The translations under genes and the position numbers were made by a program. A stretch of 64,000 nucleotides of DNA, taken from Escherichia phage vB_EcoM-Ro121c4YLVW. Of this stretch, positions 28,590-62,174 are shown piece after piece. Each line of letters opens with the position of its first letter. The stretch's first letter is position 1. The stretch is taken from sequence record NC_052654.1; one strand, 5' to 3'. The notes beneath the pieces were generated by a model that saw only the letters and a program-made list of their open reading frames with translations, was not told where the DNA came from and did not search any database.

Positions 28590-28616
28590 TAAAAAGAAAG
28601 CCCCTTTCGGGGCTTC
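28590..28616 (-). terminator. rho-independent terminator (minus strand) after the collagen-like fibre gene
   Basis: Hairpin AGCCCC-TTTC-GGGGCT with a U-tract on the minus strand. Confidence 0.65.
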
Positions 28617-37843: not shown

Positions 37844-38085
37844 TAGTCATCCTCTTTGGTAGATTGTGATCTGCCCCAGCGTAAATCAATAAGATTTTTC
37901 ATGAGGCGAGAAGGAGTTATCATGAAAACAAAAGCCCAACCCATCCATTCAGGAATTTCTTTTTCTATTCCTAAAAAGATAAACATGCCTGTCATAACCG
38001 ACATGCCTACAGCGTTCCAGACTTTCGTAGAACTGACTTTATTATCAGGATATGTACAGAACATACCTATTAAAAATTTTCTCAT
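37843..38085 (-). CDS. small membrane protein (2 TM; holin-like)
   Basis: Two hydrophobic segments with a charged C-terminus (KEDD). Confidence 0.4.
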   Translation of the reverse strand: MRKFLIGMFCTYPDNKVSSTKVWNAVGMSVMTGMFIFLGIEKEIPEWMGWAFVFMITPSRLMKNLIDLRWGRSQSTKEDD

Positions 38086-38390
38086 AGTGCGTTCTCATTA
38101 CTTTTTAAATCACAAGATATAGCTAATTCCCCAAGGTCTACAGAACCCGCTGAATGCACAAGTACAGCAGCACTAAGACTAATGGCAGTAGTACCTGGGG
38201 CAATATCAGCAGGTAGGGAATACGCCCTTTGCGTCTCCTTATCATAGATAACCTTATACCCACCCAAATCCACACCAACTGAGAAGTAAACAACCTCAGA
38301 TTGTTTAACTCCAAAGTGACGGGCTACTGCTTGTTTATTGGTTAAGATTCCGGTTGAACCTTTACCACCTTGGGAGAACATTTCGTTCAT
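38082..38390 (-). CDS. hypothetical protein
   Basis: ATG with AAGAGG RBS. Confidence 0.45.
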   Translation of the reverse strand: MNEMFSQGGKGSTGILTNKQAVARHFGVKQSEVVYFSVGVDLGGYKVIYDKETQRAYSLPADIAPGTTAISLSAAVLVHSAGSVDLGELAISCDLKSNENAL

Positions 38391-38414
38391 AACAACCTCT
38401 TTGTTTTTCTAAGT

Positions 38415-38436
38415 AAGCCCCTCTTTGGAGGGGCTT
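38415..38436. other. GC-rich stem-loop in the 250-bp noncoding region
   Basis: AAGCCCCTC-TTTG-GAGGGGCTT; sits just upstream of the RBS of the gene at 38390 on the minus strand; no canonical U-tract. Confidence 0.45.
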
Positions 38437-38615
38437 GCAGTGGTAGTGACAACACTTTGAGTTAGTACGATAGTAACTAAAGACAAGATTAACCCTGCTA
38501 CGATATGTTTTCATCATTTTATCACATGGCGATGACATGCACTTGCAGGACATAGCTTGTGTGGATTGTGCTGAATGCAATTTTGGCCTATTGTCATCAG
38601 TAAGAAAGCATTCAT

Positions 38616-38640
38616 TCCCCCGCCGAAGCGGGGTTTTTGT
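38616..38640. other. GC-rich hairpin (CCCCGCCGAAGCGGGG) with plus-strand T-tract; terminator-like, orientation ambiguous
   Basis: Hairpin followed by TTTTTGTT on the plus strand, directly downstream of a minus-strand spike gene; core resembles the hairpin at 50051-50066. Confidence 0.4.
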
Positions 38641-40928
38641 TATATAACTGAAGTAACAACACCATTGATTGTTGCTTTTATCTGTGCAGTTGGATGAGGT
38701 CTAACATTAATGGTTCCTCTATTGCTTGATGCCCCAATGAATACATCATACCCTGAAGTTGCGTTGAAATCCGAGAACAGGCTAACCGGGCTTGCATTCT
38801 GAGTGGCAGGCACAGCAGATGATGTTCCATAACGCTTCAGGATACCTGGTGTTGCTAAGGATGATGCAGCATCGCGACGGCAAGTAACGTCAAGATCAAA
38901 TGTGTATCCATCAAACCCGTATTGTGTTGAATCCTGATAAAGTTTCATTACTTCTACTGTTGAACCTCCGACAGAAGAGTTATGGTTAAGTCCTGTGAAC
39001 TTCATTCTGGTAAATCGATTGTCCTGCGCAACTGTATCGAATGTCTTTTCAATTTTAAGGCTGCTTAAACCATATACACCGTTCAGAAGTATAGGGTTCT
39101 GAACACGCGTACTCATGCTTATATCAATAGTCGGCGCGTTATACAGGTCAATCCTGTCACCAATGGAACCTGAACGATCTTTGATATTTACGGCAATAGA
39201 AAATGTAGCATCATTATTATCAATTTTTATTGTCGATCTCTTATCTACCTCTATTGTCATAGATGGAGATGACTCTGCTACTGAAGTTCCTGTTATTGTC
39301 AAAGAACGTGGATATTTAGTTACATATATTTTTGCTTCTTCGCTATAGTTTCCCGCCACAAAGGTTGCCTGGCTGTCTCCTATGCGTATTTCACCAGTTT
39401 CAACAGTTGCAGCAATAACAGACGTTCCAATAATCGGAACCTCTACTTTAGTTCCGGAAGGGAAATCAGATGTCATTGCTCGATCAAGAGTAATGACGTT
39501 TCCCGATATTGCTGTAATTCTTCGAGTCTCAACACCGCCAGTCGAGTTTGTAAAAGCAATCTCAAACCAGGTATCAAAACCAGAGGCATCTGCAACAGTA
39601 ACAGTGTTGTCATTGATAGATGCTGGCGATGTTAGTGTGGTGCTCATACCCTCAATAGACAAAGTACATTGGGCTTTGTCACTACTACCAATGTAACCCA
39701 TCAACTTGATGGAGTTATTACGAACTCGAACACCGTATTTAGTAGCCGTCGAGCCGTTTTTTGTTCCCTGTGAGTGTCCATACCAATACATAACAAGATG
39801 TAAAAGATCGTAGTTGCTGATACGGTGATCAATTGATTTATTACGAACAGTAGCATAAGGCGCAGTATAGATAGCTCTGGCTGCTGCGCTGGCACCATTA
39901 TTAGAAATGTTGCCATTTACGGTGAACCCTTCGACGGTTTGGTGCCAGTGGAAACGGTCACGGTTCCTGTCACGCGGATCAATTCCGACATGGTGCAGTG
40001 AAATGTCAGATGACGTTGACATGATTATTGTTGCGTCATTTCCGGCACCGGAAAAAGTAAATCCTCGACGATCAACATCAAGGTTGATTGTATTTGATAG
40101 ATAACTTCCGGAAGGGAATGATAACTTAGATATTATACTGTTAGCCCTTGCAACCCTGTTTGCTTCATCTATAGCAACTGAGTTTTCATCTGCGTCTGCA
40201 CCGCCAAAACCGAATTCATCATACCCCATGCTCTCTCTTACAATTAAGTTGGCATTAAACCCGCCCGCTATTGGGATTGAGTATGTATCATCATTTTGTG
40301 TTGTTGATATTAACCATTCTGACTCAGATCTTATTCCATGTTTGTTTTTATATGTTTTTACAGTCATCCCTTCGCTGAATGTGGCACCATCCCCTGATGG
40401 CAGAATTCCAGATATTAACTCTGAAACGCTATTAAATATTATAGTTGTGTTTTTATTAACCCACAATCTCAAAGAAGCATCGCCAACACTAACCCACGCA
40501 CTAGGACCAACGCCACCAGTTGATGTAGGGGTTGATTTAGGTGGTACATCTTTAGGGAAACCAGACCCCCATGTGTAGCACTGAGCACCCGCTATGTACC
40601 AGACAGCATCAGTTACACTGCCCACTGTAGCCCCTTCTTCAAAACTACCATCAACAAGAGTTAACCCAGCCTCGGCAAGACTACGACGCCACTGTTCACG
40701 ATCATTAAGAAGATTGTTATTCAACTCTTCCTGAACAGTATTACCATTTGAGGATTGTATTAAATCTGCTCCATCTGTATCTTTCAACTGGGTGGCTAAA
40801 ACCACCCCAGTGTCAGTAAGAAAGTTGGAAACTGTGCTTTTAACAGTCTTATCAGGTTGGTCTAAAACCAGGTAATCAGAACCATTAACTTTTGATGTTT
40901 CGGGTAAATTAGTAATTGTAGTTGACAT
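38640..40928 (-). CDS. tailspike / receptor-binding protein
   Basis: 762 aa, beta-rich with N/G/S/T repeats. Confidence 0.6.
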   Translation of the reverse strand: MSTTITNLPETSKVNGSDYLVLDQPDKTVKSTVSNFLTDTGVVLATQLKDTDGADLIQSSNGNTVQEELNNNLLNDREQWRRSLAEAGLTLVDGSFEEGATVGSVTDAVWYIAGAQCYTWGSGFPKDVPPKSTPTSTGGVGPSAWVSVGDASLRLWVNKNTTIIFNSVSELISGILPSGDGATFSEGMTVKTYKNKHGIRSESEWLISTTQNDDTYSIPIAGGFNANLIVRESMGYDEFGFGGADADENSVAIDEANRVARANSIISKLSFPSGSYLSNTINLDVDRRGFTFSGAGNDATIIMSTSSDISLHHVGIDPRDRNRDRFHWHQTVEGFTVNGNISNNGASAAARAIYTAPYATVRNKSIDHRISNYDLLHLVMYWYGHSQGTKNGSTATKYGVRVRNNSIKLMGYIGSSDKAQCTLSIEGMSTTLTSPASINDNTVTVADASGFDTWFEIAFTNSTGGVETRRITAISGNVITLDRAMTSDFPSGTKVEVPIIGTSVIAATVETGEIRIGDSQATFVAGNYSEEAKIYVTKYPRSLTITGTSVAESSPSMTIEVDKRSTIKIDNNDATFSIAVNIKDRSGSIGDRIDLYNAPTIDISMSTRVQNPILLNGVYGLSSLKIEKTFDTVAQDNRFTRMKFTGLNHNSSVGGSTVEVMKLYQDSTQYGFDGYTFDLDVTCRRDAASSLATPGILKRYGTSSAVPATQNASPVSLFSDFNATSGYDVFIGASSNRGTINVRPHPTAQIKATINGVVTSVI

Positions 40929-49947: not shown

Positions 49948-49977
49948 GATAACCTCGTAGTAATGATAATGCCAAAA

Positions 49978-49996
49978 GGAAGATGCAAGATCTTCC
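49978..49996 (-). other. 5'-UTR stem-loop (GGAAGAT-loop-ATCTTCC) followed by UUUU
   Basis: Perfect 7-bp inverted repeat between the promoter-like site at 50007-50036 and the start codon at 49947. Confidence 0.4.
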
Positions 49997-50006
49997 CATA
50001 TTGATT

Positions 50007-50036
50007 ATTGTAACACATATAGAAACTTCGTGTCAA
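50007..50036 (-). promoter_or_regulatory. sigma70-like promoter candidate on minus strand (TTGACA, 18 nt, TACAAT)
   Basis: Reverse complement of 50031-50036 is TTGACA; reverse complement of 50007-50012 is TACAAT. Confidence 0.45.
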
Positions 50037-50042
50037 GGGAAA

Positions 50043-50066
50043 CGAAAAAACCCCGCCGAAGCGAGG
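50043..50066 (-). terminator. terminator hairpin after the tape measure gene
   Basis: Minus strand reads CCTCGCTTCGGCGGGG then TTTTTTCG; A/T runs on both sides, so it may act bidirectionally. Confidence 0.55.
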
Positions 50067-50073
50067 TATTTTA

Positions 50074-52062: not shown

Positions 52063-52082
52063 AGTATGTTCCTCGTGTTGGA

Positions 52083-52442
52083 TTAAACAAGTTTCTTAAA
52101 CAAATCTGACATTTTATTTGTCTGGTTTTGATGTTTTCTCTTTATTGAAGTGTCTTTAACATACATGGCTTCAACATACTCTTCGTATGTTAAATACTCA
52201 TATAGTTTTAAAAGATAATCTACACCGTAGTTATCCAATGTTTTCAGTGTTTCCGAGGTATCTTTAACGACTTTGCAAAGAATAACCTCATACCACTTCA
52301 AAGTAAGGGTTTTCGTTGCTGTGTCGATAGCATGTTCAATCGCAGGTGTTAATTTGCTGCTAAACTCGTCATCGCCTGAAGCTGTGTGAACAGTTTTCCG
52401 AAACCTCGTTTGAAAAAAGGGCCGTAGTTTACCTCCAGAACT
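52083..52442 (-). other. -1 frame extension ORF of the tail assembly chaperone (programmed frameshift product, C-terminal part)
   Basis: The -1 frame is open from 52442 to the stop at 52083 and overlaps the 3' end of the chaperone ORF; slippery heptamer U UUU UUC at 52418..52412 on the minus strand. Confidence 0.6.
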
Positions 52443-60453: not shown

Positions 60454-60482
60454 AGTCTACAGGATATTTGTTGTTTTGTCAA
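60454..60482 (-). promoter_or_regulatory. sigma70-like promoter candidate on minus strand (TTGACA, 17 nt, TAGACT) with A/T-rich upstream element
   Basis: Intergenic, between the portal stop and the downstream head gene. Confidence 0.45.
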
Positions 60483-62145: not shown

Positions 62146-62174
62146 ATAATACACTTTAAAGTGACTTTTGTCAA
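62146..62174 (-). promoter_or_regulatory. sigma70-like promoter candidate on minus strand (TTGACA, 17 nt, TATTAT)
   Basis: In the terminase-portal intergenic region. Confidence 0.45.

What the first reader, a model, noticed from the sequence alone, without database searches (positions are those of the whole stretch)
38391..38640. 250-bp noncoding island in the tail module with two GC-rich hairpins and a possible extended -10 promoter
This is the largest gap in an otherwise tightly packed operon. It contains a 9-bp-stem hairpin directly upstream of an RBS, a second hairpin with a plus-strand T-tract opposite to the direction of local genes, and a TGnTAAAAT element on the minus strand around 38516..38524. 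It could hold an internal promoter, an RNA processing or stability element, or a small antisense RNA.
Basis: seen in the sequence. Interest (0 to 1): 0.35.

Follow-up and report, generated by a model that had tools for sequence, protein, structure and literature searches.

The report
Mosaic intergenic spacer after a tailspike gene
The 250-base gap is real, but it is best read as an ordinary recombination seam downstream of a swappable phage tailspike gene, made of two terminator-type RNA hairpins plus a leftover piece of another phage's promoter and leader region.

Summary
The window is a Phapecoctavirus-like E. coli myophage, and the gap (38391-38639) lies between a 762-aa tailspike gene and a 102-aa gene that encodes a stand-alone tailspike anchor domain.

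- **Hairpin 2 (38415-38436) plus the RBS:** this module is conserved upstream of homologous genes in three phage families. Its stem covaries and it is usually followed by a U-rich tail, so it is the upstream gene's intrinsic terminator. The U-tract is weakened in this window.
- **Hairpin 1 (38618-38633):** this is the recurrent CCCCGC-UUCG-GCGGGG hairpin found just after tailspike stop codons. It fits by position and type, though its sequence could not be compared, a published 20-nt predicted-terminator and recombination-hotspot motif. Here it has no sense-strand U-tract.
- **Middle segment B1 (38501-38633):** it is shared with BUCT618-like myophage contigs (probably temperate). There the same TGnTAAAAT block sits about 27 nt upstream of the baseplate-J gene and is preceded by a 19-codon upstream ORF.
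- **In this window** the upstream ORF has lost its ATG, and the downstream SD and start are replaced by 64 nt of unknown origin (B2).

The promoter may still fire. I found no support for an antisense RNA, a known RNA family or a protein gene. Interest is low.

The parts
38640..38642 (-). TAA stop codon of the 762-aa tailspike gene (38640..40928), which forms the upstream border of the island
   Evidence: Pfam Tail_spike_N
38618..38633 (-). Hairpin 1: CCCCGC-UUCG-GCGGGG, starting 6 nt after the stop codon. It is a terminator-type hairpin whose sense-strand U-tract is missing (GAAUGAAUG follows).
   Evidence: The same hairpin sequence recurs after tailspike genes in L032, L033, L036, L039 and L042 and, with a U-tract, at window 50050-50067. 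A published 'motif three' has the same position and type.
38634..38638 (+). T5 run on the plus strand, which is an A-tract upstream of hairpin 1 on the sense strand. It makes hairpin 1 a formal intrinsic terminator only for antisense transcription.
38501..38633 (-). Segment B1: hairpin 1, a relic upstream ORF and the extended -10 block. It is shared at about 90% identity with BUCT618-like myophage contigs, where it precedes the baseplate-J gene.
   Evidence: L061/L117, L077/L111, L119, L115
38522..38581 (-). Relic of a 19-codon upstream ORF (IAFSTIHTSYVLQVHVIAM*). The start codon is ATT here but ATG with an SD in most relatives (GTG in vB_Ec-G1).
38516..38524 (-). TGaTAAAAT extended -10-like element. 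The predicted start site, if it is active, is about 38509.
   Evidence: conserved at a fixed distance from the baseplate-J start in other phages
38437..38500 (-). Segment B2: 64 nt of unknown origin, found only in 17 phage records (Stephanstirmvirinae plus Gamaleyavirus U1G). It contains the start of a 25-codon TTG ORF (38409..38486) encoding a hydrophobic peptide, which is probably not a gene.
38415..38436 (-). Hairpin 2: AAGCCCCUC-CAAA-GAGGGGCUU. It is homologous to the intrinsic terminator that precedes this gene module in three phage families, and here its U-tract is degraded (ACUUAG follows).
38388..38411 (-). Conserved leader UAGAAAAACAAAGAGGUUGUUAUG, comprising SD AAGAGG (38396-38401) and the ATG (38388-38390) of the 102-aa tailspike-anchor-domain gene

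Best explanation
The island is a mosaic seam left by repeated exchange of the tailspike gene upstream. It has four pieces. (i) Hairpin 1 is the GC-rich UUCG hairpin that normally terminates tailspike genes in these phages, and here it has lost its sense-strand U-tract. (ii) B1 is a piece of the intergenic region that lies between a variable tailspike gene and the baseplate-J gene in BUCT618-like myophages (probably temperate). It carries a now start-less 19-codon upstream ORF and an extended -10 block, and it is cut off just before that gene's SD and ATG. (iii) B2 is 64 nt of unknown origin. (iv) The resident module is hairpin 2 plus UAGAAAAACAAAGAGG plus ATG, which travels with the N-terminal tailspike-anchor coding sequence in Stephanstirmvirinae, Ackermannviridae and Schitoviridae.

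In the present phage the two hairpins most likely act on the sense transcript as leaky terminators and 3'-end or inter-cistronic stabilisers. They would set the ratio of tailspike mRNA to downstream baseplate mRNA, and hairpin 2 frames the RBS of the next gene. The conserved hairpins and flanks also provide short homology for tailspike swapping. The relic promoter is optional, because many relatives do without B1 and B2.

Shown here: the anatomy, the homologies, the covariation and the modular distribution. Inferred: termination or stabilisation activity, co-transfer as a cassette flank, and the direction of transfer.
For: Modularity by blastn:
- 38391-~38441 is shared with Kuttervirus, Gamaleyavirus-like and Yersinia phages.
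- ~38441-38575 is shared only with 17 records.
- 38576-38640 is shared only with P3322, PD06, PD114 and PD211.
- Breakpoints differ between relatives (query positions 158, 173, 185, 247).

Most relatives have only a 50-73-nt gap that holds the hairpin, TTTTTT and the RBS (nieznany, BME3, anhysbys, heyday).

In my scan of the unique sequences printed from IMG/VR loci and fetched phages, nearly all (about 25 of 27) show a hairpin, a T-rich tail and TAGAAAAACAAAGAGG upstream of the ATG. On 19 of them, 5 of 7 stem pairs change on both sides, 93% of cells pair, and 0 of 500 shuffles reach this.

Hairpin 1's sequence recurs after other tailspike genes with a U-tract and at window 50050-50067.

A published study describes a 20-nt motif 0-19 nt downstream of RBP stop codons in Gamaleya-, Kutter- and Justusliebigviruses. 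It predicts that motif to be a terminator and proposes it as a recombination hotspot (PMC10408124).

B1 lies upstream of baseplate J in L061, L077, L111, L115 and L119. The -10/leader block is also present in BUCT618, L121, L122 and L123.

Other gaps in the same structural block have the same terminator-plus-RBS or terminator-plus-promoter grammar.
Against: There is no transcript data, so termination, stabilisation and promoter activity are all untested.

Hairpin 1 has no sense-strand U-tract and hairpin 2 has only ACUUAG after its 9-bp stem, so neither is a canonical terminator in this phage.

The B1/B2 core has been retained through several independent replacements of the upstream tailspike. 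That could mean it is useful rather than junk.

The origin of B2 is unexplained.

I could not see the published motif-three logo, so identity with hairpin 1 rests on position and type only.
Confidence: 0.62

Rival explanations
1. Active internal promoter. TGaTAAAAT (38516-38524, minus strand) is used by host sigma-70 RNA polymerase and starts transcripts near 38509. B2 and hairpin 2 would then form a leader of about 118 nt for the 102-aa gene and the downstream baseplate genes, topping up expression after the tailspike's hairpin. This is compatible with the mosaic origin and differs only in whether the relic still works.
For: - The extended -10 block is conserved at a fixed ~27 nt upstream of the baseplate-J ATG in all ten BUCT618-like sequences inspected, even though what lies upstream of it differs.
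- The variation within the block keeps the consensus: TGaTATAAT, TGaTAAAAT, TGgTAAAAT.
- The block is retained in all Phapecoctavirus variants across different upstream breakpoints.
- This phage clearly uses sigma-70-type promoters inside the structural block, for example TTGACA-18-TACAAT at 50036-50007 after a terminator, and TTGACA-17-TATTAT at 62174-62146.
Against: - There is no -35 element.
- TGNTAWAAT is not enriched in the window (14 observed against 10.3 expected).
- The whole block of about 35 nt is conserved in the other phages, so the -10 cannot be separated from a 5'-UTR or translational element.
- Relatives lacking B1 and B2 express the same genes without it.
- A promoter placed 90 nt upstream of a terminator-type hairpin is an odd arrangement.
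- Sequence identity among the Phapecoctavirus copies matches that of the flanking gene in most relatives, so in them it reflects recency, not selection.
Confidence: 0.3
2. Small sense-strand RNA or attenuator unit. A transcript of about 100 nt starts at the relic promoter and ends at hairpin 2. Alternatively, it is a leader whose 25-codon TTG ORF (38409..38486) reads through hairpin 2 and modulates termination or access to the RBS.
For: The geometry of promoter, about 100 nt, GC hairpin, then RBS resembles sRNA and attenuator layouts. The TTG ORF ends 6 nt after hairpin 2, and it stays in frame in P3322 despite the inverted loop.
Against: - There is no Rfam match.
- Hairpin 2 has almost no U-tract here.
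- 1-nt indels in the hairpin in ukendt and vB_Ec-G1 change the ORF's C-terminus and stop.
- There is no distant homologue at peptide level.
- There is too little sequence variation to test structure in B2.
Confidence: 0.06
3. Antisense (plus-strand) small RNA, or an antisense-transcription stop. Hairpin 1 with its plus-strand T5 terminates a plus-strand transcript that starts within B2.
For: Hairpin 1 followed by TTTTTG is the only canonical terminator call in the gap, and it is on the plus strand. An A-rich run upstream of the hairpin on the sense strand is kept in most relatives. A weak plus-strand promoter-like site, GTGACA-17-GATAGT, lies at 38446-38474.
Against: - The promoter-like site scores 9/12, a level found at or below chance frequency in the region (2 found against 3.8 expected).
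- The loop reads UUCG, the extra-stable tetraloop, on the sense strand, as it does in the hairpin-2 family and at 50050-50067. This points to function in the sense RNA.
- The A-tract is absent in L061, L119 and U1G.
- The weak Rfam hits on the plus strand (GadY, RsmY; E > 1) are terminator-only noise.
Confidence: 0.05
4. An unannotated small protein gene lies in the gap. Candidates are the 72-aa ORF 38362..38580, the 33-aa ORF 38514..38615, or the 19-codon upstream ORF.
For: The 19-20-codon upstream ORF is kept open, usually with an SD-like purine run and with a start codon (ATG; GTG in vB_Ec-G1), in all other aligned B1 carriers and in L123; EF1-1 is frame-broken, and the window and P3322 have ATT. 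vB_Ec-G1 has an annotated 147-aa CDS across the region.
Against: - In this window and in P3322 the upstream ORF starts with ATT and its SD is degraded.
- Variable columns fall 6/10/10 on codon positions 1/2/3, so there is no coding bias, and L123 rewrites the C-terminus.
- The vB_Ec-G1 CDS is a 26-nt-deletion fusion of a 52-aa phrog_5211 gene (intact in ZCKP1) with non-coding DNA.
- The 72-aa frame is broken by indels in relatives.
- There are no Pfam hits.
Confidence: 0.04

Closest known systems
Conserved non-coding 'motif three' downstream of receptor-binding-protein genes in Gamaleya-, Kutter- and Justusliebigviruses (Virol J 2023, PMC10408124)
   Same: It is a short GC-rich motif of about 20 nt that starts 0-19 nt after a tailspike stop codon, is predicted to be a terminator, and is proposed as a recombination hotspot for tailspike swapping. 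Hairpin 1 starts 6 nt after the stop, and its sequence recurs after other tailspike genes in Kuttervirus-size contigs.
   Different: I could not read the published logo, so sequence identity is inferred. In this window the hairpin has no sense-strand U-tract, and it is followed by about 180 nt of extra DNA before the next gene.
Rho-independent (intrinsic) terminators and inter-cistronic stabiliser hairpins of phage late operons
   Same: Both hairpins have a GC-rich stem and a tetraloop (UUCG on the sense strand for hairpin 1). Both sit between cistrons. The hairpin-2 family covaries and usually has a U-rich tail.
   Different: In this window both lack a proper U-tract on the coding strand, so at most leaky termination or RNA stabilisation is expected.
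Extended -10 (TGnTATAAT) sigma-70 promoters
   Same: TGaTAAAAT matches TGn plus 5 of 6 positions of the -10 hexamer. The homologous block lies at promoter-like distance from the baseplate-J gene in BUCT618-like phages.
   Different: There is no -35 element and no transcript-start evidence. Here the block is detached from its original gene and sits upstream of a terminator-type hairpin.
Mosaic junctions and 'boundary sequences' at module borders in phage genomes
   Same: Different relatives break homology at different points in the gap. Conserved flanks bracket a hypervariable receptor-binding gene, and pieces are shared across unrelated phage families, including virulent phages and a 38-kb phage group that is probably temperate.
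   Different: There is nothing unusual beyond the particular donor group identified here.

Membership tests
Intrinsic (Rho-independent) terminator | Stable GC-rich stem-loop in the transcript | tested here: met
   Hairpin 1 folds at -13.7 kcal/mol (z = -3.2) and hairpin 2 at -16.7 kcal/mol (z = -4.5) on the sense strand.
Intrinsic (Rho-independent) terminator | U-rich tract immediately 3' of the stem on the transcribed (minus) strand | tested here: not met
   Hairpin 1 is followed by GAAUGAAUG and hairpin 2 by ACUUAGAAAAA. Only the plus strand of hairpin 1 has T5. Homologues of hairpin 2 in relatives do have UUUUUU or UUUCUU.
Intrinsic (Rho-independent) terminator | Structure rather than sequence conserved (compensatory changes) | tested here: met
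   For the hairpin-2 family, 5 of 7 pairs change on both sides, 93% of cells pair, and 0 of 500 shuffles reach this. The alignment was anchored on predicted loops, so it leans towards the structure. Hairpin 1 was not tested because there is too little variation.
RBP-downstream 'motif three' (PMC10408124) | About 20 nt, non-coding, starting 0-19 nt downstream of an RBP stop codon | tested here: met
   Hairpin 1 spans 38618-38633 and the stop codon 38640-38642, a 6-nt offset.
RBP-downstream 'motif three' (PMC10408124) | Sequence match to the published consensus | not testable with these tools
   The logo and alignment are images that are not held as text.
Sigma-70 extended -10 promoter | TG at -15/-14 plus a -10 hexamer close to TATAAT | tested here: met
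   TGATAAAAT lies at 38516-38524(-). The motif count in the window is not above chance.
Sigma-70 extended -10 promoter | Conserved position relative to a downstream gene in homologues | tested here: inconclusive
   This is met in BUCT618-like contigs, where the block lies about 27 nt upstream of the baseplate-J ATG. In the window the gene start is replaced by B2, and the whole block is conserved, not just the -10.
Sigma-70 extended -10 promoter | Mapped transcription start | not testable with these tools
   No transcriptome for Stephanstirmvirinae turned up in the two literature searches I ran.
Known structured RNA or sRNA family | Match to an Rfam covariance model or a tRNA/tmRNA | tested here: not met
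   The best Rfam E-value is 0.88 and every hit is far below its gathering score. ARAGORN finds nothing.
Small protein-coding gene or upstream ORF | Start codon with SD, conserved frame, and codon-position substitution bias | tested here: not met
   In the window the 19-codon ORF starts with ATT and has a degraded SD. Variable columns fall 6/10/10 by codon position. The frames of the 72-aa and 25-aa ORFs shift in relatives.

The most novel reading that the evidence does not exclude
The retained B1/B2 core (38405-38545) is a working regulatory cassette rather than a scar. Under this reading an extended -10 promoter captured from a BUCT618-like myophage (probably temperate) drives a leader of about 118 nt. 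The leader's 25-codon hydrophobic upstream ORF and hairpin 2 would tune expression of the tailspike-anchor and baseplate genes, or would yield a ~100-nt phage sRNA. This would explain why the core survives every tailspike replacement in this lineage and was even carried into a Gamaleyavirus (U1G).
Probability: 0.12. Interest if true: 0.4.

Novelty: new member of a known kind. Interest (0 to 1): 0.18.

Why it matters
This is mainly a clean worked example of how tailspike (host-range) cassettes move. The exchangeable gene is bracketed by a conserved anchor-coding 5' end and by short conserved non-coding hairpins, and pieces of a donor's downstream regulatory region can hitch-hike across the virulent/temperate divide and across families. 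That is useful for annotating these gaps, for example for not calling the vB_Ec-G1 147-aa fusion ORF. It is also useful for designing homology arms when engineering tailspikes in Phapecoctavirus- and Kuttervirus-type therapeutic phages. It does not reveal a new mechanism.

Tried and rejected
- **Rfam at permissive E-values and ARAGORN:** no credible RNA family.
- **Pseudogene idea:** I tested whether the gap is the 3' remnant of the small XhlA-like/phrog_5211 membrane-protein gene seen in ZCKP1 and vB_Ec-G1. Only a 6-residue KHKVAG/KHIVAG match turned up, at E = 0.3. The alignment shows that gene simply lies upstream of the B1 core in those phages, so I rejected the idea.
- **Peptide search:** tblastn of the hydrophobic frame-0 peptide against all phage records found only the same 17 near-identical records.
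- **Paralogous copies:** blastn-short of the gap against the window found none. The only resemblance is the terminator at 50050-50067.
- **E. coli genomes:** no match either for the gap or for the BUCT618 block, so no E. coli prophage source was identified.
- **Exact-pattern scans:**
  - The 18-mer AGCAGGGTTAATCTTGTC hit 21 gut-phage contigs, but only as a 21-nt coincidence inside an unrelated gene.
  - The five hits to species-representative genomes were 21-27-nt chance matches in unrelated MAGs.
- **Conservation as evidence of selection:** the core is 95-100% identical among relatives, and so is the flanking gene in most of them. The exceptions (ukendt, U1G) are mosaics, so the comparison is uninformative.
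- **Codon-position test on the 19-codon upstream ORF:** no bias.

Full report
**What the window is.** Megablast of 38000-39000 finds 185 phage records. The best is Escherichia phage vB_EcoM-P3322 (98% over the full kilobase), of the genus Phapecoctavirus in the subfamily Stephanstirmvirinae, with genomes of about 150 kb.

All genes around the finding are on the minus strand:
- a 762-aa tailspike at 38640..40928, with a Pfam Tail_spike_N domain;
- the gap;
- a 102-aa ORF at 38082..38390;
- an 80-aa membrane protein (phrog_1322);
- a 495-aa baseplate-J-like protein.

Residues 1-93 of the 102-aa product match residues 1-94 of the CBA120 tailspike 4oj5 (E = 4e-49). They also match the N-termini of 4qnl, 5w6f and 5w6h. 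The ORF is therefore a stand-alone tailspike anchor domain.

**Checking the observation.** The gap is 249 nt (38391-38639).
- **Hairpin 2:** AAGCCCCTC/GAGGGGCTT at 38415-38436, 9 bp, perfect, with a 4-nt loop. It folds at -16.7 kcal/mol, z = -4.5. It ends 24 nt before the ATG, and SD AAGAGG lies at 38396-38401.
- **Hairpin 1:** CCCCGC-N4-GCGGGG at 38618-38633, starting 6 nt after the tailspike stop codon. It has T5 only on the plus strand and folds at -13.7 kcal/mol, z = -3.2.
- **TGATAAAAT:** at 38516-38524 on the minus strand. The bare motif is not enriched in the window (14 matches against 10.3 +/- 2.8 expected).

The gap is non-coding in practice. The 72-aa TTG ORF (38362..38580) overlaps the next gene, and 1-nt indels in close relatives shift its frame. 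None of the relatives whose annotation I inspected places a CDS there except vB_Ec-G1. It is the largest non-coding gap in the structural block, because the longer interval 52063-52348 holds a 72-aa ORF.

**Hairpin 2 is a conserved terminator-plus-RBS module.** Many Stephanstirmvirinae have only 50-73 nt between the upstream gene and the 102-aa gene. That short gap consists of a GC hairpin, then TTTTTT, then AGAAAAACAAAGAGG and the ATG. Examples are nieznany (CCCCTC-TTCG-GAGGGG-TTTTTT), BME3 and anhysbys (CCCCGC-TT[T/C]G-GCGGGG plus a T-rich tail), and Kuttervirus heyday.

I retrieved 37 IMG/VR loci that encode homologues of the 102-aa module. They come from contigs of about 150-160 kb (Ackermannviridae-size), about 70 kb (Schitoviridae-size) and other sizes. 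Nearly all of those that share the MNE... start show the same layout, but with different stem sequences: CCCCTC/GAGGGG, CCCCGC/GCGGGG, AAAGGGTCAC/GTGACCTTT, CCCCATC/GATGGGG, CCCTCC/GGAGGG and GCGGGGC/GCCCTGC.

On 19 distinct sequences, 5 of 7 stem pairs carry changes on both sides and 93% of cells pair. No shuffle out of 500 reaches this, and every slid control is far lower. One caveat applies: I anchored the alignment on predicted loops.

The element is therefore an RNA hairpin that is selected as a structure. It is normally followed by a U-rich tail, which makes it the intrinsic terminator of the upstream gene sitting directly in front of the next RBS. In this window the tail is degraded. 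Three former tail bases (CUU) now extend the stem, and ACUUAG follows.

**Hairpin 1 is the recurrent tailspike-end hairpin.**
- AAAAACCCCGCTTCGGCGGGG followed by a T-rich run occurs after other tailspike genes in Kuttervirus-size contigs (L032, L033, L036, L039, L042).
- A near-copy with a full U-tract is a sense-strand terminator at window 50050-50067.
- The other tail-fibre and tailspike genes in the window are also followed by such hairpins, at 28597-28616 and around 30650.

A published comparison of tailspike genes describes a 20-nt non-coding 'motif three'. It starts 0-19 nt after the stop codon in all the Gamaleya-, Kutter- and Justusliebigvirus RBP genes in that data set. The authors predict it to be a terminator and propose it as a recombination hotspot for exchanging receptor-binding domains (PMC10408124). 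Hairpin 1 fits that description in position and kind. I could not see the logo, so sequence identity is inferred.

In this window hairpin 1 has an A-run before it and no U-run after it on the sense strand. Formally, then, it is a terminator only for antisense transcription. However, its loop reads UUCG on the sense strand, as it does in the hairpin-2 family and at 50050. From this I infer that it evolved as a sense-RNA hairpin and lost its U-tract where the downstream DNA was replaced.

**The middle of the gap is modular and partly foreign.** A sensitive blastn search of the gap alone gives three zones:
- 38391-~38441 is shared with several families.
- ~38441-38575 is shared with only 17 records. 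These are a subset of Phapecoctavirus and Justusliebigvirus phages plus the 73-kb Gamaleyavirus U1G.
- 38576-38640 is shared only with P3322, PD06, PD114 and PD211.

Homology breaks at different points in different relatives. Aligning eleven gaps shows that all keep an almost invariant core: CAAGCGCATGTCATCGCCATGTGATAAAATGATGAAAACATATCG, then B2, then hairpin 2. What lies upstream of that core varies:
- hairpin 1 directly (TSP7_1, W22, U1G, ukendt);
- a diverged version with a 12-nt indel (the window, P3322, PD06);
- a 52-aa phrog_5211 gene (ZCKP1, vB_Ec-G1);
- unrelated sequence (EF1-1).

**Exact-pattern scans show where B1 also occurs.** Scans of IMG/VR and of the metagenome collection found that 38501-38633 (B1) is also present at 88-91% identity in contigs of 5-48 kb (L061/L117, L077/L111, L119, L115). 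These contigs carry P2-type baseplate genes. Their only relative among isolated phages is the 38-kb Escherichia phage BUCT618, at 86% over baseplate J. In them B1 lies between a variable tailspike or tail-fibre gene and the baseplate-J gene, in this order:
- a hairpin (in L061, L077/L111 and L119, but not L115);
- a 19-codon ORF with an SD (MAFSTIHINYGLQAHVIAM, MDFITIHTNYVLQAHVIAM, MIYRTIQTSYGRQAHVIAM);
- TGTGATAAAATGATGAAAACAT(T)ATCGGGGGTGGA;
- the ATG of baseplate J.

BUCT618, L121 and L122 lack the small ORF but keep (G/A)TGATATAAT(G/A)ATTAAAAATTACCGGGGG before the ATG. L123 has TGgTAAAAT and a rewritten ORF C-terminus.

The extended -10-like block is thus conserved about 27 nt upstream of a start codon in ten sequences, while what lies upstream of it differs completely. 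This is the best evidence that it is a promoter, or at least a functional 5' leader, in those phages.

In the window, homology stops at 38501, just before the SD and ATG of baseplate J. The 64 nt that follow (B2, 38437-38500) have no other relative at either DNA or peptide level. The small ORF has ATT in place of ATG and AATAGG in place of AAGAGG, in both the window and P3322.

**Is anything in B1 or B2 selected here?** I could not show it.
- Identity of the core among Phapecoctavirus copies (95-100%) is matched by the adjacent gene (98-100%) in most pairs.
- In the two pairs where the gene is much more diverged (ukendt 87%, U1G 70%), the pattern is that of a mosaic with a recent shared 5' piece.
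- Variable columns in the small ORF fall 6/10/10 on codon positions 1/2/3.
- B2 has almost no variation with which to test a structure.
- Whole-gap folding is more stable than shuffled sequence on both strands (z = -3.1 and -3.8). Most of that excess probably comes from the two hairpins, but I did not fold the gap without them.

**Most likely working model.** The island is a seam produced by repeated tailspike replacement. The hairpins are sense-strand RNA hairpins, and here they are leaky. They probably punctuate or stabilise the tailspike message and frame the RBS of the anchor-domain gene, and their conserved sequences offer micro-homology for exchange. B1 is a hitch-hiking piece of a BUCT618-like phage's tailspike-to-baseplate-J intergenic region.

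Its promoter-like box may still work. This phage uses sigma-70-type promoters inside its structural block, for instance a terminator followed by TTGACA-18-TACAAT at 49948-50073. It is not needed, however, because relatives with only hairpin plus RBS exist.

Confidence is 0.62 for 'mosaic seam with terminator-type hairpins; no dedicated new element'. It is about 0.3 that the promoter is active, which does not exclude the main reading. It is 0.04-0.06 each for a sense sRNA or attenuator, an antisense RNA, or a small protein.

**Novelty.** The hairpins belong to a known and already published kind. The link of the middle segment to BUCT618-like myophages, and the small ORF plus -10 block conserved there, are modest new details. 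No new mechanism is indicated.

Noticed in passing
window 38415-38436 vs L001 (P3322) and L004 (vB_Ec-G1): The 4-nt loop of hairpin 2 is CAAA in the window and most relatives, but it is the reverse complement TTTG in P3322 and vB_Ec-G1, with identical stems. This looks like loop inversion by intra-hairpin template switching. Ukendt and vB_Ec-G1 also carry 1-nt indels in the stem.
   Followed up: partly
window 38082-38390 (-): The 102-aa ORF is a free-standing copy of the N-terminal anchor domain of Kuttervirus and Gamaleyavirus tailspikes (PDB 4oj5 residues 1-94 at E = 4e-49; also 4qnl, 5w6f, 5w6h). It is conserved as a separate short gene in the Stephanstirmvirinae I looked at, and phage U1G has a 107-aa version.
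   Followed up: partly
L004 1497-1940 (vB_Ec-G1, protein XKC19818.1): The annotated 147-aa 'hypothetical protein' is probably an artefact. A 26-nt deletion relative to ZCKP1, flanked by a short TGGGC repeat (AAGTGGGC / AAATGGGC), removes the stop of a phrog_5211-type small gene (52 aa in ZCKP1; a longer N-terminus in vB_Ec-G1) and fuses it to the non-coding B1/B2 sequence.
   Followed up: yes
L061 8590-8646, L077, L111, L115, L119, L123 (BUCT618-like contigs): A 19-20-codon ORF, usually with an SD-like purine run, is kept open just upstream of an extended -10-like block and the baseplate-J gene. Its peptide sequence is only loosely conserved, so it may be a leader peptide or may simply be tolerated.
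   Followed up: partly
window 49948-50073 (-): This 126-nt intergenic island holds a canonical terminator (ACCTCGCTTCGGCGGGG+TTTTTT), then a near-consensus sigma-70 promoter (TTGACA-18-TACAAT with TG), then another hairpin and an RBS. Further near-consensus promoters lie at 62146-62174 and 60454-60482. The structural block therefore appears to be read by host sigma-70 polymerase in several units.
   Followed up: no
window 52063-52348 (-): The 286-nt interval between the 662-aa tape-measure-like gene and the 160-aa gene upstream of it contains a 72-aa TTG ORF (52083..52301). This may be an unannotated gene or the frameshift extension of a tail-assembly chaperone.
   Followed up: no
L003 3392-3971 (phage ukendt): In ukendt the same gap is 580 nt. 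It has a degraded hairpin 1 (CCCCGACTCGGCGGAG) and about 330 nt of extra unannotated DNA with no convincing ORF, which is further mosaic filler at the same seam.
   Followed up: no
L005 2674-3246 (Gamaleyavirus U1G): A 73-kb Schitoviridae phage carries the whole hairpin 1, B1, B2, hairpin 2 and 5' gene module at about 96% identity to Phapecoctavirus. This indicates recent transfer of the module between unrelated virulent phage families.
   Followed up: partly
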